Assembly (NCBI GenBank): GCA_030673825.1
Contig: JAUTCS010000092.1
Location: 48,954-72,953, forward strand
DNA: 24,000 nt
From: Verrucomicrobiota bacterium JB024
GTDB taxonomy: Bacteria; Verrucomicrobiota; Verrucomicrobiia; Opitutales; Cerasicoccaceae
Direction of reading: 5' to 3'
Part shown: positions 1-5,046 of the stretch, one piece after another
How positions within the stretch are numbered: position 1 is the first letter of the stretch
How the letters are laid out: the number at the start of each line of letters is the position of its first letter
The notes under the pieces: model-generated
The model's database searches: none
Seen by the model: only the letters and a program-made list of their open reading frames with translations
Told to the model about the DNA's origin: nothing
Position numbers and translations under genes: made by a program

Positions 1-392
1 GGGGAGGAGACGGAGGTACCGCCAGCGGCCACGGTGAGGTCTTCGCCTTCGGCCCAGGTCTCATCATTGATGATGAACTTGAAGACGAGCCCGTCAGTCG
101 CGCTGGCTGTGGACCAGGTCCAGTCGCCATCGACGCAGTCCATGAGCAGGCCCTTGTCCCAGGACAGGCCGCCGCCTTCACCGCGGATGCAGAGGTTGTT
201 CCCCCAGCCGATATCGACCTTGGCGATAACGGTGGTCAGCGGGGTCGCGGCTTTCTTGACCGTCTTCTTGGCGGCGGGCTTTTTGGCAGCCGTCTTCTTG
301 ACGACAGCCTTCTTGGCAACCGTCTTTTTAACGGGGGCCTCTTGCTTGACCGCTTTCTTCACAGCCTTCTTTGCAGCTTTTTTTGTAGCCAT
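1..392 (-). CDS. Lys/Ala-rich (histone H1-like tail) protein with a C-terminal beta-sandwich/carbohydrate-binding-module-like domain; the 3' end runs off the window
   Basis: Absent from the ORF track because it runs off the edge. Hand translation of the reverse strand from the ATG at 392-390 gives MATKKAAKKAVKKAVKQEAPVKKTVAKKAVVKKTAAKKPAAKKTVKKAATPLTTVIAKVDIGWGNNLCIRGEGGGLSWDKGLLMDCVDGDWTWSTASATDGLVFKFIINDETWAEGEDLTVAAGGTSVSS. That is 130 codons with no stop. The listed + ORF 34..408 is its antisense shadow. Confidence 0.75.
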   Translation of the reverse strand, partial: MATKKAAKKAVKKAVKQEAPVKKTVAKKAVVKKTAAKKPAAKKTVKKAATPLTTVIAKVDIGWGNNLCIRGEGGGLSWDKGLLMDCVDGDWTWSTASATDGLVFKFIINDETWAEGEDLTVAAGGTSVSS

Positions 393-545: not shown

Positions 546-3308
546 TTAGTTTTCGTTGCGCGGGGGAAACGGATTGCGCGTGTTTATCCGTGAGAGAGAG
601 TCGTTCAGGCGGGAACCGAGCACACGTGAGAGGTTGAGGAAGAGCTTGCTGGAGATGAAGGGGCTGGAGCGCTGAAGCTTGAGCAGACTGTCCCAGTCGA
701 GCACGAGGAGTTTACCCGCGGTGCGCGCGGTGACGTCCGCCGTGCGCCGCACGCGCGAGACCAGCGCGACCTCGCCCACGACGTCGCCGAGCGCGAGATT
801 GGACAGGACCATCTTTTCGCCCTCGACCTGCTTGCTGACTTCAAATTCACCGTCGATGACGACATACATCCGGTGCCCGAGTTCCCCCTCCTGGATGATG
901 CGCTGGTCCGGCTCGCAGTTTTCGAGGTTGGCGAGGAGGATGAGTTTTTTCGCCTGCCACCGGGTCATGCCGTGGAAGACCGGCGAGGACTCAATGAGGG
1001 TCTTGCGCAGGTTGAAGCCGATCACGTCCCACAGGGTGATCAGGCGCGTGGTGGACAGCAGCACGGGCGTCAGGATGATGTCCGCCGCAAAGGCCAGGAG
1101 CATGACAAAGGCACTCAGCAGGCCGAACTGCATGACCGGCATGAAGCTGGAAAAGCCCAGCACGACGAAGCCCCCGGCAAGGCCGAGCGAGGTTGTCATG
1201 ACCGGGAAAAACTCCGCCCGCAGGCAATTGGCGATGGCGGGGCGCTCCTCCTTGCACACCTTCAGTTCGCGGTTGTAGCGCACCATGAGGTGCAGGGTGT
1301 CGTCCACCGCGATACCGATGGTGATGGCGGCGACCATGCACGTGCCGACGTTCAGCGGAATACCCGTGAGCGCCATCATGCCGAAGACTACCACGATGGC
1401 GAAGACGTTCGAGAGCACCGTGATGAAGCCCGCCCGGAAGGACAAAAACAGCAGCCCCACCGTGATGAACAAAAACGCGATCATGCTCGTGAGCGAGAGC
1501 ACCTGCCCGGTGATGATCTTGTCCACCGCGCTGGCCGCCAGCACGCTCTGCCCGGTCACGCTGAAGTCGTGCCGCCCGAAGTCCCCGCTTGCGAGCTTTT
1601 GCTCGATGTCGCTGACGAGCTCGTTAAAGGCGCTGCTGTCGTTAATGTCGCAGCGGATGACGATGTTGAGCTTCGAGTAGTCGCCGCTGACGTAGGGGCG
1701 AAGACTGGAGCGGTGGAAAAAGATCAGGTACTGCGCCACGAGCGCGTCCTTGTCGGGGACTTTGCGCAGGGTCGGATCGTCGCCGAACATGGCCTGGTTG
1801 ACCAGCGAGAGGTAGTCGGTCAGGCCGATGACCTTGTCGAGGTCGCCGCGCGCGCGCAGCCACTGCACGAGCTGCTCGGCCTGCTGGAGCTTCTTGGCCT
1901 GCTTGTAGTCGCCGGGTTCGCCCTCCAGGGTGATATACGCGACCTTGCTCCCGCTCATGCGCTCGGCCACGGTGTTGAGCTTTTCGAGGATGGGAGACTC
2001 GGGCTTGAGAAAGCTCAGCAGGTCGTTGCTCACCTTGATGCGGGGGATCAGAAACAGGCACGGCACCGCGATCAGCGTAAAAATCAGCATGACCGTGCGC
2101 GGGCGGGCGACCACGCGCGTCATGATCAGTGCGGTGACGGCGCGGGTCAGGCGACGGTGCCAGGCCTGCTCGGCCTCGGCATGAGGGGCGGGCTTGATGA
2201 AGCGTCCGAAGTAGCGCAGGTACGCGGGCAGGAAAAAGACGGACACCGCGAAACGCGCCGCCAGTCCGAAGGCCGCGCTCATCCCGAAGTCCTGCATGAT
2301 CCGGAGGGCGTTGATCCCCGTGACGGCGAAGCCGAGCGTCGTGGTCAGCGCGGTCAGGCAGATGGTCAGGCCGATGCGCCCGGCCACGCCGCGGATGGCG
2401 TCCAGCCCCTCGATGCCCTCGTCGCGCAGCTCGCGGTACTCGGTGAGTATGTGCACGTCCTCGGTCGCCCCGATGATCAGGATGAGCGCCGGGACGATGT
2501 AGTTGAGCATGCTCACGGGGATGCCCGCCAGCGCCATGAACCCGAGGGTCCAGACGGTGGCGATGGCAGCGTTGAGCACCGGGATGACGGAGGCCTGGGC
2601 GCTGCTCATGAGCAGCCCGATGAGTCCGATGAGGATCAGGCAGGAGACCGGCAGGAGGAGCTTCTGGTCGCCCAGGATGTAGTCGCCCATCCACACATGC
2701 ACGGCGGGTGCGCCCACTTGGAAGACCCGTCCGAACGTGTCCGCGTAGCGGTCGAGGATCTGTTGGATGGCGTTGTAAACCTCCCGGTCATAGGTGCTCT
2801 CGGAGCCCGAGGGCGGCTTGAGGTAAAGGGTGAGAAGCGTAGCCTCGCCGTCGGGGGAGATGACGGCACGCTCCAGCAGCGGATTGGCCAGGGCCAGCGC
2901 TTTTTCCTGGTCGGCGGCTTTCTGCGTCTTCGGGAGGGTCTGGAGCAGGGGGGTAGTGTCCACCCAGCCACCGGAGCCCCGGATGTTTTTCACCGTAAAG
3001 AGGTTTTCCTCGCGCTGGACCTGCGGCAGCTGCTTGAGGTCCTGGCTCAGGGCCTTGAGCGCTTCCAGCTTTTGCGGGCTGAAAAGCGCAGCATCCTCGA
3101 CGTAGACGGAGGCCAGACGGTCGGAGCCGAACTCCTCGCGCACGGCCTCGTAGCGCAGGCGCTCGGGGCTGTTTTTCGGGATGAGCTCCTCGGTCGAGAC
3201 ATTGACCTGGAGGTGCGAAGCCTGCCAAAGCCCAAGGCCCGTGATCACGGCAAACGCCACTATGACCACCCAAGCGTGCCGATAGCAGAACTGGAAGAGA
3301 GACTGCAC
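546..3308 (-). CDS. MMPL/RND-superfamily membrane transporter (predicted lipid/envelope exporter) fused to a C-terminal cyclic-nucleotide-binding domain
   Basis: 920-aa ORF with a GTG start at 3308. It shows the duplicated 6-TM plus large-loop architecture typical of MMPL/RND. Paired membrane motifs are ALILIIGATEDVHIL and AITIGIAVDDTLHLMVRY. The C-terminal ~110 aa form a cNMP-binding fold (see next feature). Confidence 0.9.
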   Translation of the reverse strand: MQSLFQFCYRHAWVVIVAFAVITGLGLWQASHLQVNVSTEELIPKNSPERLRYEAVREEFGSDRLASVYVEDAALFSPQKLEALKALSQDLKQLPQVQREENLFTVKNIRGSGGWVDTTPLLQTLPKTQKAADQEKALALANPLLERAVISPDGEATLLTLYLKPPSGSESTYDREVYNAIQQILDRYADTFGRVFQVGAPAVHVWMGDYILGDQKLLLPVSCLILIGLIGLLMSSAQASVIPVLNAAIATVWTLGFMALAGIPVSMLNYIVPALILIIGATEDVHILTEYRELRDEGIEGLDAIRGVAGRIGLTICLTALTTTLGFAVTGINALRIMQDFGMSAAFGLAARFAVSVFFLPAYLRYFGRFIKPAPHAEAEQAWHRRLTRAVTALIMTRVVARPRTVMLIFTLIAVPCLFLIPRIKVSNDLLSFLKPESPILEKLNTVAERMSGSKVAYITLEGEPGDYKQAKKLQQAEQLVQWLRARGDLDKVIGLTDYLSLVNQAMFGDDPTLRKVPDKDALVAQYLIFFHRSSLRPYVSGDYSKLNIVIRCDINDSSAFNELVSDIEQKLASGDFGRHDFSVTGQSVLAASAVDKIITGQVLSLTSMIAFLFITVGLLFLSFRAGFITVLSNVFAIVVVFGMMALTGIPLNVGTCMVAAITIGIAVDDTLHLMVRYNRELKVCKEERPAIANCLRAEFFPVMTTSLGLAGGFVVLGFSSFMPVMQFGLLSAFVMLLAFAADIILTPVLLSTTRLITLWDVIGFNLRKTLIESSPVFHGMTRWQAKKLILLANLENCEPDQRIIQEGELGHRMYVVIDGEFEVSKQVEGEKMVLSNLALGDVVGEVALVSRVRRTADVTARTAGKLLVLDWDSLLKLQRSSPFISSKLFLNLSRVLGSRLNDSLSRINTRNPFPPRNEN
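594..926 (-). other. Cyclic-nucleotide-binding (CAP/PKA-type) domain at the C-terminus of the MMPL transporter
   Basis: Sequence RIIQEGELGHRMYVVIDGEFEVSK...LALGDVVGEVALVSRVRRTADVTARTAGKLLVLD. An intact phosphate-binding cassette GEVALVSRVRRTADVTA maps to nt 726..776, checked by hand back-translation. It follows the last TM, so it is predicted cytoplasmic. Confidence 0.85.
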
Positions 3309-3434
3309 CCGTTAAGTCGCAGGCATGGGCTTGATTACCCAGCCTGATAGGCTCTGAGCATGGGTAATTGCCCCTTGCTCACAAGCGAAAATACACGGGC
3401 TTTCCGTGGGGAAAGCACGGATGGGGGAGGGGCA

Positions 3435-4307
3435 TCAGCTCTTTTTGCCGTCGTCAGCCTGCGTTTCTTCCAGGATCTTCAGCAGGAGGGCATCTTCCTC
3501 TTCCTGGTTCTGGAGAGCCTCGACGGTGAACAGCTCCTCGGGCACCGGCTTGTTCAGGCGGGCCTTGAGCACGGTCATGATGGAAGAGGTGCTGTTGGTG
3601 TGGTTATTCATCGTCGCGCGGCGGGGGCGCTCGGTGGCACCGTCCACTTCGGGCGAGTTGTAGTCGTACCCGTTGAAGGTCTTGAAGGGCTCCTTTTCGC
3701 CCTCGGCGTAGAACTCGATGCGCAGGATGTTGTAGCTGTCTTTGTCGATGTAGAGCAGGCGGCTCGGGTAGTCCTGGCGGTTCTTGATATCGACGTTGGC
3801 CGGAGCGGACATGATGACGAAGACTTCCTTACCCTCCAGCTCCTCGTCCATCAGGCGGTAGTACTGGAACTCTTCGGGGTTTTCCTTGCGCAGGTCGTCG
3901 AAGGTGAAGTCCGAGTCCATGAACGGCGCGTTCTTCTGGTTGCCGGTGATCTGGCGTGCCTGACCCAGCGCGGGCAGGTAAAAGTACTGGTCGGCCTCGC
4001 CGCCGGGCTTCTCCAGGGTCAGCAGGGAGACCCCGCTGATGTCCGCCGGGGAGAGGAAGCGGATGAGGTAGCGCAGGTTGCCGTCCTTGTCCGGCTTGAC
4101 GGCGCTGATCATCTCGCGCACCTGGGTGTTACCGTCCTCATCGACGATGACCATCTTGATCAACTCGACCTCGGATTCGGCAGCCTGGTGAGACTTGAGC
4201 TCGCTCATGATCTCATCGGCCTGTTTATAGTTAGCCTTCCGGAAGCCCGACAGCGGCAAAGCGGTCGCGAGCAGCAGAAGCGCGATGGCAATCCTACGGA
4301 ACGTCAT
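3435..4307 (-). CDS. LolA-like outer-membrane lipoprotein-sorting family protein (periplasmic partner of MMPL-type exporters)
   Basis: 290 aa with signal peptide MTFRRIAIALLLLATALPLSG. The motif YFYLPALGQARQITGNQKNAPFMDSDFTFDDL matches my memory of the LolA_like (PF17131-type) family. It lies directly upstream of the MMPL gene on the same strand. Confidence 0.8.
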   Translation of the reverse strand: MTFRRIAIALLLLATALPLSGFRKANYKQADEIMSELKSHQAAESEVELIKMVIVDEDGNTQVREMISAVKPDKDGNLRYLIRFLSPADISGVSLLTLEKPGGEADQYFYLPALGQARQITGNQKNAPFMDSDFTFDDLRKENPEEFQYYRLMDEELEGKEVFVIMSAPANVDIKNRQDYPSRLLYIDKDSYNILRIEFYAEGEKEPFKTFNGYDYNSPEVDGATERPRRATMNNHTNSTSSIMTVLKARLNKPVPEELFTVEALQNQEEEDALLLKILEETQADDGKKS

Positions 4308-4395
4308 GACGGTAGCAAAACTTGGCGTAATGTAAACGATTAGCAGATGTTGTCAAACGGGAAGCTTCCCGCGCTCTTATCGGCCGGACGTTCGC

Positions 4396-5046
4396 TCAGT
4401 TAAGCTGCTGCGGATTGTCGATCAGGCCAAAGGCGAGGGCTTGCCGGGTGAGTCCGGCGACGTCGTGGACGCCGAGCTTTTTCATCAGGTTCGCGCGGTG
4501 GGTGTCGGCCGTTTTCACGCTGATGTCGAGCTTGGCGGCGATCTCCTTGCTCGTGCAGCTCTCGGCGATCAACTGGAGGACCTGCCGTTCGCGCGGTGTC
4601 AGTTCCTCCAGGGAGTCCCCTTGTGTCGGGTTGATCATGATCTCGCGCATGATGTCCACGATACGGGGACCGAAATAGCTCTGGCCGGCGACGATCTTCT
4701 CGATCGCGACCTCCAGCTCGTTGAGGTTGGCGTCCTTTTCAATGAAGCCCTCGATGCCCGCCTCCAGCACCTTTTTGACCACGTTTTTACTCGGGAAGGC
4801 GGAAAAGATGAGGATGTCGGGCTTGCGGTCAGCGTTTTTGAGCTGGCGCAGGACCTCGACGCCGTTGAGCTGCGGCAGCATGATGTCGAGCACGACGATG
4901 TCGGGGCGCTTGTCATTGATTTCGCGCAGGGCCTCGTGCCCGTCGGCAAGGGCGCCGACGACTTCAATGCCGGGGTACGACTCCAGCAGGCGGCAAATCA
5001 GGTCCCGCAGGATGGTTTGGTCTTCGACTACAACGACGCGCTTCAT
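4396..5046 (-). CDS. NarL/FixJ-family response regulator (REC + LuxR-type HTH)
   Basis: The true start is taken at MKRVVVVEDQ (ATG 5046-5044). The track's 286-aa version adds a Pro/Gly-rich non-coding-looking extension. Receiver motifs are DIVVLDIMLP (acceptor Asp), ILIFSA and EGFIEKD. The HTH is LTPRERQVLQLIAESCTSKEIAAKLDISVKTADTHRANLMKKLGV. Confidence 0.9.
   Translation of the reverse strand: MKRVVVVEDQTILRDLICRLLESYPGIEVVGALADGHEALREINDKRPDIVVLDIMLPQLNGVEVLRQLKNADRKPDILIFSAFPSKNVVKKVLEAGIEGFIEKDANLNELEVAIEKIVAGQSYFGPRIVDIMREIMINPTQGDSLEELTPRERQVLQLIAESCTSKEIAAKLDISVKTADTHRANLMKKLGVHDVAGLTRQALAFGLIDNPQQLN

What the first reader, a model, noticed from the sequence alone, without database searches (positions are those of the whole stretch)
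546..3308. MMPL/RND exporter with a built-in cyclic-nucleotide sensor
**Seen in sequence.**
- A full 12-TM-type MMPL/RND transporter continues without interruption into a ~110-aa cNMP-binding domain (nt 594..926).
- Its phosphate-binding cassette GEVALVSRVRRTADVTA (nt 726..776) retains the Gly-Glu and the Arg-Thr-Ala that contact the cyclic phosphate in CAP/PKA/PKG-type domains.

**Established knowledge.**
- RND/MMPL pumps are proton-motive-force driven and are normally regulated transcriptionally.
- cNMP domains act as allosteric switches in channels, kinases and transcription factors.

**Inference.**
- Export by this pump may be gated directly by cAMP or cGMP.
- Arg-Thr-Ala rather than Arg-Ser/Ala-Ala is only a weak hint toward cGMP.
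- Post-translational second-messenger control of an envelope lipid exporter has, to my knowledge, not been studied experimentally.
Basis: partly seen in the sequence, partly recalled or inferred. Interest (0 to 1): 0.6.

Follow-up and report, generated by a model that had tools for sequence, protein, structure and literature searches.

The report
Lipid-type RND pump with cAMP sensor
A proton-driven membrane pump of the lipid-moving RND type really does end in an intact cyclic-nucleotide sensor domain. It belongs to a large, old, unstudied bacterial family in which a second messenger (here most likely cAMP) probably controls export of a hydrophobic cargo to a periplasmic carrier.

Summary
Its cassette motif, Gly-Glu...Arg-Thr-Ala, is invariant in 31 relatives.

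It is not a mis-assembly. All of the best 150 clusters (50% identity) in a 1.8-billion-protein library span the junction. So do 78 of 86 fetched loci, from about 15 bacterial phyla. In my tree the fused pumps form one clade (support 1.0).

A secreted LolA-like protein (window:3435-4307) lies directly upstream, as it does in 51 of 66 loci with enough flank.

The genome holds a single nucleotide cyclase, with adenylate-type specificity residues. In the same order, 32 of 32 genomes with the fusion have a class III cyclase, against 46 of 119 without it. I therefore favour cAMP over cGMP.

Ligand binding, gating and cargo remain inferred. I found no paper describing an RND-CNB fusion. Earlier agents of this scan noted the same family on at least eight other genomes. 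Here it lacks the PqiABC neighbours reported there.

Verdict: a new variant of known kinds, untested experimentally. Interest 0.6.

The parts
546..3308 (-). Gene for the 920-aa RND-CNB fusion protein (GTG start at 3308, stop at 546-548)
   Evidence: ORF and translation. Pfam MMPL, SSD and cNMP_binding. Homologues of 918-920 aa align from residue 1.
1056..3308 (-). RND transporter core, aa 1-751: 12 TM helices and two periplasmic domains (aa ~31-199 and ~424-594)
   Evidence: AF2 secondary structure. Foldseek matches to MmpL5/4/3, NPC1/NPC1L1, Patched and HpnN, E 1e-26 to 1e-19. HAE3 model TIGR00921 at 2.4e-65.
2451..2471 (-). TM4 motif GATEDVH (aa 280-286), candidate proton-relay residues D284 and H286
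   Evidence: D284 in 58 of 68 and H286 in 64 of 68 distant family representatives. The proton-relay role is inferred from the TM4/TM10 charged pairs of other RND pumps (my own knowledge).
1290..1310 (-). TM10 motif AVDDTLH (aa 667-673), candidate proton-relay residues D669, T671 and H673
   Evidence: D669 in 65 of 68, T671 in 68 of 68, H673 in 67 of 68. TM8-12 is the best-conserved region of the protein.
930..1055 (-). Short conserved linker and N-terminal helices of the CNB domain (aa 752-793, 'RLITLWD...WQAKKLILL'), which join TM12 to the sensor
   Evidence: Helices at aa 759-764, 769-774 and 783-792 in the model. R755, T758 and W760 are at least 90% conserved. Conservation is 0.67, as high as in the TM regions.
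579..929 (-). Cyclic-nucleotide-binding domain: beta-roll (aa 794-871) and B/C helix (aa 872-910)
   Evidence: PF00027 at 3e-15. Best solved relatives by sequence are PKA regulatory subunits and PKG, E 7e-16 to 1e-11. With the family profile, SthK matches at 8e-19. Secondary structure from the model.
726..776 (-). Phosphate-binding cassette GEVALVSRVRRTADVTA (aa 845-861)
   Evidence: G845, E846, R855 and A857 are invariant and T856 at least 90% conserved in 31 relatives. In 68 distant representatives: G 68, E 61, R 64, T/S 55, A 61.
3435..4307 (-). Partner gene: a secreted LolA-like protein of 290 aa, with a signal peptide and no lipobox cysteine
   Evidence: PF17131 LolA_like at 3.3e-42. N-terminus MTFRRIAIALLLLATALPLSG. 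PDB 3BK5 at 1.6e-22. A LolA-like gene lies directly upstream on the same strand in 51 of 66 loci. It is the only strong LolA_like match in this genome.
4329..4356 (-). Sigma-70-like promoter match (TTGACA-16-TACATT, 10 of 12) just upstream of the LolA-like gene
   Evidence: Consensus scan. This is a pattern match only, not evidence of function.
4396..5046 (-). Orphan NarL/LuxR-type response regulator upstream of the pair. It is a neighbour only in the closest relatives, so its membership of the system is doubtful
   Evidence: Response_reg plus GerE. The same neighbour occurs in the 83%-identical locus L003 but not in L004. It was found in only 5 loci overall.
1..392 (-). Downstream small gene (133 aa, runs off the window start): a Lys/Ala-rich histone-H1-like N-terminus and an unassigned C-terminal domain. 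Its link to the pump is unknown
   Evidence: Translation of L002:11991-12392(-). A gene of about 131 aa sits in the same position in L003. No Pfam match at 1e-3.

Best explanation
This is a two-gene envelope export module. The first gene encodes a secreted LolA-like periplasmic carrier. The second encodes a proton-motive-force-driven RND transporter of the HAE3-like, lipid-handling branch, the same fold class as HpnN, MmpL3/4/5, NPC1 and Patched.

The pump most likely extracts a hydrophobic or lipid cargo from the inner membrane and passes it to the LolA-like protein for delivery towards the outer membrane. Its cytoplasmic C-terminus is a canonical cyclic-nucleotide-binding domain, attached to TM12 by a short, conserved helical linker.

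The likely ligand is cAMP, made by the genome's single class III cyclase, which carries a CHASE2 sensor domain. In other CNB proteins, ligand binding moves the cassette, the hinge helix and the N-terminal helices. Here that movement would be passed through the linker to the TM8-12 bundle that carries the TM10 proton-relay residues. This would switch or tune transport after translation.

Shown here: the fusion, the intact cassette, intact transporter motifs, the conserved partner, a single origin, and co-occurrence with cyclases. Inferred: ligand binding, the identity of the ligand, the sign and mechanism of regulation, and the cargo.
For: - **Domains and model.** Pfam domains; 12-TM RND plus CNB model at pLDDT 84.6; fold matches to lipid-type RND proteins.
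- **Sensor conserved.** The cassette motif G-E...R-T-A is invariant in 31 relatives and kept in most of 68 distant ones. The linker and CNB domain are as conserved as the TM regions.
- **Transporter looks functional.** The TM4 and TM10 Asp/Thr/His motifs are conserved in 58-68 of 68 sequences. This argues for a working pump rather than a relic.
- **Partner.** A LolA-like protein with a signal peptide lies directly upstream here, and in 51 of 66 loci.
- **Origin and spread.** All 142 fused cores fall in one clade, support 1.0. The fusion is found in about 15 phyla.
- **Cyclase supply.** The genome has one class III cyclase (CHASE2 plus a catalytic domain with Lys in 'DKYIGD' and Thr in 'NYTMMGD'; best PDB match CyaB, 3R5G). 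No class I or CYTH cyclase was found.
- **Co-occurrence.** All 32 genomes of the order that have the fusion also have a class III cyclase, against 46 of 119 without it. This includes a within-genus contrast, G118 versus G017.
- **Adjacency.** A cyclase gene lies within 6 kb of the pump in 5 fetched loci, for example L007.
Against: - No experiment exists, and neither binding nor gating was tested.
- I could not inspect model coordinates or the predicted error map, so the contact between the CNB domain and the TM bundle is unverified.
- A minority of distant family members have degenerate cassettes (for example P0146, P0172, P0195, P0202, P0222). One lineage lost the domain and another has a decayed copy. 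Regulation by the domain is therefore dispensable in some lineages.
- Arg-Thr-Ala does not discriminate between cAMP and cGMP.
- The cargo is unknown. Nothing nearby points to a cargo or its synthesis; DUF374 and the other neighbours were not examined for this.
Confidence: 0.5

Rival explanations
1. Transceptor or signalling scaffold. The RND/sterol-sensing-domain module senses membrane lipid status, as SCAP and Patched do. Together with the CNB domain it passes a signal to other proteins. Transport would not be the regulated output.
For: - The transporter matches the sterol-sensing-domain and Patched models.
- Family variants carry further signalling modules: a GGDEF-like domain after the CNB domain (P0126, P0133, P0149, P0117), an N-terminal FHA domain (P0161), or two CNB matches (P0200, P0227).
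- An orphan response regulator lies next to the operon, and an orphan CNB-histidine kinase lies elsewhere in the genome.
Against: - This protein has no output domain.
- The GGDEF-like domains of the variants lack the GG[DE]EF motif.
- The TM4 and TM10 proton-relay motifs are strongly conserved, and a periplasmic carrier gene is coupled to the pump gene. Both fit active export.
- The response regulator is a neighbour only in the closest relatives.
Confidence: 0.15
2. The C-terminal domain has the CNB fold but does not act as a cyclic-nucleotide switch of transport. It might bind another ligand. It might instead serve oligomerisation, localisation, stability or partner recruitment, as the C-terminal domain of MmpL3 is said to do for localisation.
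For: - Many CRP/FNR-type and KCNH-type domains with the CNB fold do not bind cyclic nucleotides (established knowledge).
- Two of the other three CNB-domain proteins in this genome have non-canonical cassettes.
- Some family members have a degenerate or lost domain.
Against: - The residues that contact the cyclic phosphate (Gly-Glu and Arg-Thr/Ser-Ala) are invariant among close relatives and retained in most distant ones.
- The closest solved relatives by sequence are true cAMP/cGMP receptors: PKA regulatory subunits, PKG and SthK.
- Every genome with the fusion in the order sample has a cyclase.
Confidence: 0.2
3. The mechanism is the same, but the ligand is cGMP or another cyclic nucleotide rather than cAMP.
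For: - The Arg-Thr-Ala cassette is shared with PKG and CNG channels.
- PKG domains are among the best sequence matches.
- Other genomes of the order carry up to 16 cyclase matches of unknown specificity.
Against: - The single cyclase in this 95%-complete genome has Lys and Thr at the two base-specifying positions, as in the adenylate cyclases CyaB and CyaC. The guanylate cyclase Cya2 has Glu and Gly at the aligned positions.
- HCN channels also have Arg-Thr-Ala and prefer cAMP (my own knowledge).
Confidence: 0.12
4. Artefact: two genes joined by mis-assembly or by a lost stop codon, or a chance match to the CNB model.
For: None found.
Against: - The same junction occurs in 78 of 86 loci from independent assemblies, including complete genomes of isolates (Rubellicoccus peritrichatus CP136920, Cerasicoccus, Thalassospira, Terasakiella).
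- The CNB match is 3e-15.
- The linker is conserved.
Confidence: 0.01

Closest known systems
HAE3 family of RND transporters (TIGR00921): HpnN hopanoid transporter (PDB 5KHN/5KHS), AmeD of Castellaniella defragrans (PMC6394551)
   Same: 12 TM helices, two small periplasmic domains, and TM4/TM10 charged motifs. HAE3 is the best subfamily model (2.4e-65). HpnN is a fold match. Like AmeD, the pump is encoded next to a periplasmic LolA-superfamily protein (AmeB is DUF1329; PMC6394551).
   Different: It scores below the curated cut-offs of TIGR00921 (221 against 351.9 bits) and of both HpnN models. There is no hopanoid or monoterpene gene context. None of the characterised members carries a cytoplasmic sensor domain, and no PDB chain covers both modules.
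LolA_like (PF17131) plus MMPL transporter gene pairs, for example the iron-starvation-induced PG1175-81 locus of Porphyromonas gingivalis (PMC10434189)
   Same: The same two-gene unit, annotated 'outer membrane lipoprotein-sorting protein' plus 'MMPL family transporter'. The cargo is unknown there too.
   Different: Those loci are controlled at the level of transcription (TetR-type regulator, iron), and their pumps are not described as carrying a CNB domain. I did not test whether they belong to the same clade.
Prokaryotic cyclic-nucleotide-gated channels SthK and MloK1 (and CNG/HCN channels)
   Same: A C-terminal cytoplasmic CNB domain attached to the last TM helix of a membrane transport protein. 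The SthK CNB domain matches the family profile at 8e-19. This is the best working analogy for ligand-driven coupling to TM helices.
   Different: Those are tetrameric ion pores with a C-linker. This is a secondary active transporter with a much shorter linker (about 8 residues before the first CNB helix). It is not a member of that family.
Other transporter-CNB fusions known only from sequence: NTT-HEAT-cNBD proteins (PMC5381601) and MFS-CNBD fusions mentioned in a 2023 review (PMC10710835)
   Same: A CNB domain recruited as a plug-in regulatory module at the C-terminus of a transporter. A single origin is inferred for the NTT-HEAT fusions; the cNBD end is described as labile, with repeated fusions and fissions. 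cAMP control is proposed but untested.
   Different: The transporter superfamily is different. Neither source mentions RND pumps.
PKA regulatory subunit and PKG cyclic-nucleotide-binding domains
   Same: These are the best sequence matches of the sensor domain (E 7e-16 to 1e-11), with an identical Gly-Glu...Arg-(Thr/Ala)-Ala cassette logic.
   Different: Those are tandem soluble domains that regulate a kinase. Here a single domain is tethered to a membrane pump.

Membership tests
RND superfamily (MMPL/Patched/SSD fold) | 12 TM helices with large extracytoplasmic domains between TM1-2 and TM7-8, and an internal two-fold repeat | tested here: met
   AF2 model secondary structure. Pfam MMPL matches in two stretches. 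Foldseek hits to MmpL5/4/3, NPC1, Patched and HpnN with probability 1.0.
RND superfamily (MMPL/Patched/SSD fold) | Conserved charged or polar proton-relay residues in TM4 and TM10 | tested here: met
   GATEDVH (D284, H286) and AVDDTLH (D669, T671, H673), conserved in 58-68 of 68 family representatives. Proton translocation itself was not tested.
HAE3 subfamily (TIGR00921) | Score above the curated cut-off of the subfamily model | tested here: not met
   221 bits against a cut-off of 351.9. It is the best-matching subfamily, so I call the protein 'HAE3-like' rather than a curated member.
HpnN hopanoid transporter (TIGR03480 / NF052374) | Score above the model cut-off, and a hopanoid biosynthesis gene context | tested here: not met
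   112 against 751.85 bits, and 43 against 1100 bits. No hopanoid genes were seen among the annotated neighbours.
Mycobacterial-type MmpL (HAE2, TIGR00833) | Score above the model cut-off | tested here: not met
   108.5 against 874.7 bits. About 13-16% identity to the MmpL structures.
Cyclic-nucleotide-binding domain (PF00027) | Score above the Pfam gathering threshold, and a beta-roll followed by B/C helices | tested here: met
   56.4 against 27.5 bits. Strands at aa 794-871 and helices at aa 872-910 in the model.
Cyclic-nucleotide-binding domain (PF00027) | Phosphate-binding cassette with Gly-Glu and Arg-(Ser/Thr/Ala)-Ala | tested here: met
   G845-E846 and R855-T856-A857 are invariant or nearly so in relatives.
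Cyclic-nucleotide-binding domain (PF00027) | Actual binding of cAMP or cGMP | not testable with these tools
   This needs ITC, DRaCALA or a ligand-bound structure.
LolA_like periplasmic carrier (PF17131), for the partner gene | Score above the cut-off, export signal, and homology to solved LolA-like structures | tested here: met
   144.7 against 30 bits. Signal-peptide-like N-terminus without a lipobox Cys. PDB 3BK5 at 1.6e-22 and 9TP6 at 8.7e-18. Ligand binding was not tested.
Cyclic-nucleotide-gated channels (SthK/MloK1) | Tetrameric pore domain with a selectivity filter | tested here: not met
   The membrane part is an RND transporter. The resemblance is confined to the sensor domain and its position.
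PqiABC-LolA-like-RND operon noted elsewhere by this scan | pqiABC genes adjacent to the LolA-like gene and the pump | tested here: not met
   No Pqi genes lie next to the pair in this window. The genome has only two MlaD-domain ORFs, of 400 and 352 aa, on other contigs. Pqi genes are adjacent in only 2 of the fetched loci, L008 and L083.

The most novel reading that the evidence does not exclude
cAMP made by an envelope-sensing CHASE2 adenylate cyclase binds the C-terminal domain of this pump and directly switches proton-driven export of an outer-membrane-bound lipid on or off. This would be the first RND transporter gated by a second messenger. The family arose once and is now spread over about 15 bacterial phyla. 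It would also give a natural ligand-controlled handle on the transport cycle shared with MmpL3, NPC1 and Patched.
Probability: 0.45. Interest if true: 0.75.

Novelty: new variant of a known kind. Interest (0 to 1): 0.6.

Why it matters
RND transporters of the lipid-handling branch (MmpL3, HpnN, NPC1, Patched) matter in medicine and cell biology, yet their control after translation is poorly understood. A natural RND pump with a built-in, well-understood ligand switch would offer three things:

- a new layer of envelope regulation, with a second messenger acting directly on lipid traffic to the outer membrane;
- a tractable system in which a small molecule can trigger the conformational cycle of an RND or sterol-sensing-domain protein, for structural and biophysical work;
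- an entry point to the largely uncharacterised HAE3 / LolA-like export modules.

Cultured, non-pathogenic carriers exist: Thalassospira profundimaris, Terasakiella pusilla DSM 6293, Pacificispira spongiicola, Cerasicoccus maritimus and Rubellicoccus peritrichatus. The hypothesis is therefore directly testable.

Tried and rejected
- **Mis-assembly or chance.** Rejected.
- **Membership of HpnN or of mycobacterial MmpL.** Rejected on model cut-offs.
- **PqiABC linkage reported by earlier notes.** Not present in this lineage, and adjacent in only 2 of my fetched loci.
- **GGDEF variants as an enzymatic output.** Rejected: all four lack GG[DE]EF, with WSGTRF, WDGNVF, WGDYRF or VDHHRF in its place.
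- **AmeABCD-type partners for the gammaproteobacterial subgroup that lacks a LolA-like neighbour.** Rejected: their upstream genes are homogentisate dioxygenase, a LysR regulator, a CoA-transferase and the like.
- **Class I and class IV (CYTH) cyclases in the genome.** None found, in a genome that is 95% complete.
- **Technical dead ends.**
  - The search for related loci with the diverse alignment A2 failed for lack of a conserved stretch. A1 was used instead.
  - Two Pfam calls failed on input limits.
  - A regex for cassettes in the other CNB proteins found nothing, so I read them by eye.
  - The structure tool returns no coordinates or error map, so the docking of the CNB domain against the TM bundle could not be examined.
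- **Literature.** Seven literature searches found no description of an RND/MMPL-CNB fusion. Subscription journals are not covered.
Full report
**1. The observation**

The minus strand of window:546-3308 holds one open frame of 920 codons, starting at GTG 3308.

- Pfam finds the MMPL family in two stretches (1.3e-33), the sterol-sensing and Patched SSD models, and a cyclic-nucleotide-binding (CNB) domain at aa 797-880 (3e-15; 56.4 bits against a cut-off of 27.5).
Nt 594-926 are aa 795-905. Nt 726-776 are aa 845-861, GEVALVSRVRRTADVTA, with R855 and T856 numbered correctly.
- An AlphaFold2 model built on 31 relatives is confident (mean pLDDT 84.6, pTM 0.76). It shows TM1, a periplasmic domain, TM2-6, a cytoplasmic helix, TM7, a second periplasmic domain and TM8-12.
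- TM12 ends near aa 751. Three short helices follow, then a beta-roll (aa 794-871) and a long B/C helix (aa 872-910).
- With 12 TM helices, both termini should be cytoplasmic, as in solved RND proteins (established knowledge). The sensor therefore faces the compartment where cyclic nucleotides are made.

**2. What the two modules are**

- The best NCBIfam subfamily model is HAE3 (TIGR00921, 2.4e-65), but the score is below its cut-off. The HpnN and actII/MmpL models score far below theirs.
- The model matches MmpL5/4/3, NPC1/NPC1L1, Patched, Dispatched and HpnN at 12-16% identity with Foldseek probability 1.0. These are the lipid-handling RND proteins.
- The TM4 motif GATEDVH and the TM10 motif AVDDTLH are conserved in 58-68 of 68 distant relatives. 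This argues for a working proton-driven pump.
- By sequence, the sensor domain is closest to the CNB domains of PKA regulatory subunits and PKG (E 7e-16 to 1e-11), then to CRP and HCN/CNG channels. With the family profile it also matches SthK (8e-19).
- No PDB chain covers both modules.

**3. Not an artefact, and not rare**

- A word-indexed search found about 44 clusters (90% identity) with the same MMPL plus CNB architecture, at 83% to 28% identity. The named ones are Puniceicoccales and other Verrucomicrobiota: Ruficoccus amylovorans 82%, then Rubellicoccus and Cerasicoccus.
- I searched 1.84 billion cluster representatives with aa 640-920, which spans TM10-12 and the CNB domain. This gave 367 proteins at E <= 1e-30. 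In 149 of the 150 listed, the best match runs across the junction.
The best 80 loci include fused genes from these groups:
  - Verrucomicrobiota, Desulfobacterota, and Alpha-, Gamma- and Zetaproteobacteria;
  - Planctomycetota (Scalindua), Elusimicrobia and Deferribacterota (Calditerrivibrio);
  - Nitrospinae, Spirochaetes, Myxococcota, Bacteriovoracaceae, Latescibacterota and Binatia.
- Cultured isolates among them are Thalassospira profundimaris, Terasakiella pusilla DSM 6293, Pacificispira spongiicola and Cerasicoccus maritimus.
- In my own ORF analysis, 78 of 86 loci carry the CNB domain in the pump ORF. The eight exceptions are:

| Loci | State |
|---|---|
| L038, L042 | Cut off by contig ends |
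| L084 | Interrupted gene, with the CNB part about 1.4 kb downstream |
| L071 | Decayed domain |
| L072, L074, L091 (Kiritimatiellales) | No CNB domain |
| L092 (Geobacteraceae) | No CNB domain |

- Within the window's own order the fusion is patchy. It is present in 32 of 151 sampled genomes, 5 of 6 in its own family, and some genomes have two copies.

**4. The sensor is under selection**

- In 31 relatives, G845, E846, R855 and A857 are invariant and T856 is at least 90% conserved.
- In 68 representatives at 27-53% identity, the counts are G 68, E 61, R 64, T/S 55 and A 61. A handful have clearly degenerate cassettes.
- The linker and N-terminal CNB helices (aa 752-793) and the cassette are as conserved as the TM regions, and more conserved than the periplasmic domains. 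The adjoining TM8-12 bundle is the most conserved part of the protein.
- This pattern fits mechanical coupling between sensor and pump. That reading is an inference.

**5. A single origin**

I built a FastTree (LG+gamma) phylogeny of the RND cores of 142 fused and 30 unfused relatives, rooted on a Fervidobacterium sequence.

- All fused sequences fall in one clade with support 1.0.
- Nested inside it are the three Kiritimatiellales sequences without the domain, the decayed L071 and the interrupted L084. These look like secondary losses.
- Caveats: the unfused sample is small, and the support values are SH-like.

**6.

- Directly upstream on the same strand, window:3435-4307 encodes a 290-aa LolA_like protein (PF17131, 3.3e-42).
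- It has a signal-peptide-like N-terminus and no lipobox cysteine. It shows clear homology to the structural-genomics entries 3BK5, 9TP6 and 4Z48.
- A sigma-70-like promoter match precedes it at 4356-4329. A weak hairpin lies between the two genes at 3399-3416.
- The same gene lies directly upstream in 6 of 6 loci fetched by exact protein look-up, including relatives at 28-32% identity. It does so in 51 of 66 loci that have at least 900 nt of upstream sequence.
- The CNB-less Kiritimatiellales pumps keep the partner.
- A gammaproteobacterial subgroup lacks it; there the upstream genes are unrelated.
- In this genome it is the only strong LolA_like match.
- HAE3 pumps paired with LolA-superfamily proteins are known from AmeABCD (PMC6394551). 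They are also known from iron-induced loci of Bacteroidetes (PMC10434189). No cargo is known for this type of pair.

**7. Which nucleotide**

- The genome (95% complete) has one class III cyclase, a 774-aa protein with a CHASE2 domain and a catalytic domain. No class I or CYTH cyclase was found.
- Its catalytic domain matches the adenylate cyclase CyaB best (3R5G, 6e-31).
- At the two base-specifying positions it has Lys ('DKYIGD') and Thr ('NYTMMGD'), like CyaB and CyaC. The guanylate cyclase Cya2 shows Glu and Gly at the aligned positions. Which positions are base-specifying is from my own knowledge.
- Arg-Thr-Ala occurs in both cAMP- and cGMP-preferring domains, so it does not decide the question. 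I favour cAMP.
- The genome has three other CNB-domain proteins:
  - a Crp-like regulator;
  - a protein combining CNB, CBS and DUF294 domains;
  - a CNB-histidine kinase.
- The first two have non-canonical cassettes. The kinase has a near-canonical one.
- The pump therefore carries the most canonical cyclic-nucleotide site in this organism.
- Across the order, all 32 genomes with the fusion also have a class III cyclase, against 46 of 119 without it. This includes a within-genus contrast, G118 with both and G017 with neither. Relatedness and genome size confound this comparison, so I treat it as a necessary condition met, not as proof.
- A cyclase gene lies within 6 kb of the pump in 5 fetched loci, for example L007.

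**8. Mechanism proposed**

A periplasmic LolA-like carrier and a proton-driven HAE3-like pump together move a hydrophobic cargo out of the inner membrane. cAMP binding to the C-terminal domain repositions the cassette, the hinge and the N-terminal helices. Through the short linker this acts on TM12 and the TM8-12 bundle that carries the TM10 relay residues, and so tunes transport.

- Shown here: the architecture, conservation, the partner, a single origin and the cyclase supply.
- Inferred: binding, ligand identity, the direction of regulation, and the cargo.
- Rival readings are scored in the rivals section: a signalling 'transceptor', a CNB fold with another role, and cGMP as the ligand.
- Variants with extra modules hint that the cytoplasmic end is a signalling hub. 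These include a degenerate GGDEF domain after the CNB domain, an N-terminal FHA domain, and two CNB matches. None supplies an enzymatic output.

**9. Novelty**

- Seven full-text searches found no paper on an RND/MMPL-CNB fusion.
- A 2023 review of post-translational transporter control mentions CNB fusions only for MFS transporters (PMC10710835). NTT-HEAT-cNBD fusions are described only from sequence (PMC5381601).
- NCBI names these proteins simply 'MMPL family transporter', and no NCBIfam model fits the fusion.
- Earlier agents of this scan reported the same family on at least eight other genomes, often inside a pqiABC / LolA-like / pump operon.
- In this lineage the Pqi genes are not adjacent, and they are adjacent in only 2 of my fetched loci. 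The LolA-like plus pump pair therefore appears to be the core unit, at least in this part of the family.
- I class the finding as a new variant of known kinds: a known transporter superfamily joined to a known sensor module, in a combination that I did not find described and that has no experimental test.

**10. Limits**

- I had no access to model coordinates.
- The cargo is unknown.
- The literature library lacks most subscription journals.

Noticed in passing
window:1-392 (-), full gene L002:11991-12392 (-): A 133-aa protein just downstream of the pump. It has a Lys/Ala-rich histone-H1/HC2-like N-terminus (KKAAKKAVKK...) and a Trp/Gly-rich C-terminal domain of about 80 aa with no Pfam match. 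A gene of about 131 aa sits in the same position in the 83%-identical locus L003.
   Followed up: partly
window:18399-21035 (+): An 878-aa ORF combining an alpha/beta-hydrolase domain, a VTT (DedA/SNARE-associated) membrane domain and a weak RimK-like ATP-grasp match. This is an unusual three-part fusion that may relate to membrane lipids.
   Followed up: no
window:4396-5046 (-) and L010:1405-2523 (+) (G000:C102): An orphan NarL/LuxR response regulator lies next to the LolA-like/pump operon. An orphan CNB-HisKA-HATPase histidine kinase with a near-canonical cassette lies elsewhere, flanked by a poly(A) polymerase-family (PolyA_pol/HD) gene and a trypsin-like protease gene. They could form a cAMP-responsive pair controlling transcription of the operon. 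This is pure speculation, and the regulator is a neighbour only in close relatives.
   Followed up: partly
P0126, P0133, P0149, P0117, P0161, P0200, P0227 (family members from other organisms): Longer variants of the family: RND-CNB followed by a degenerate GGDEF-like domain (no GG[DE]EF), FHA-RND-CNB, and proteins with two CNB matches.
   Followed up: partly
window:3399-3416 (-): A terminator-like hairpin (7-bp stem, weak T tail) in the 126-nt gap between the LolA-like gene and the pump gene. It might attenuate read-through and set the ratio of carrier to pump.
   Followed up: no
L084:5908-10163: In a Latescibacterota genome the fused gene is interrupted after the TM10 motif. The CNB-bearing remainder lies about 1.4 kb downstream, which suggests an insertion.
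   Followed up: partly
L071:5872-8535: A Verrucomicrobiia relative keeps the conserved linker but has a shortened beta-roll without the cassette. This is a decaying sensor domain.
   Followed up: partly
L008:1401-8742 and L083: pqiA, pqiB (MlaD) and pqiC lie directly upstream of the LolA-like/pump pair in L008. L083 also matches all three. This is the operon type reported by earlier notes of this scan, but it is rare in my sample.
   Followed up: partly
G094:C34:8412-9251 and G048 (same genus as the window): One same-genus genome shows a TAA inside the match to the junction segment. Another same-genus genome (98% complete) has no match at all, although it keeps the cyclase. The system can be lost even within the genus.
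   Followed up: no
window:873-3347 (+): An 824-aa open frame antisense to the pump gene, rich in Arg, Asp, Gly and Glu. It is most likely a shadow ORF of a GC-rich gene. I did not test it against any library.
   Followed up: no
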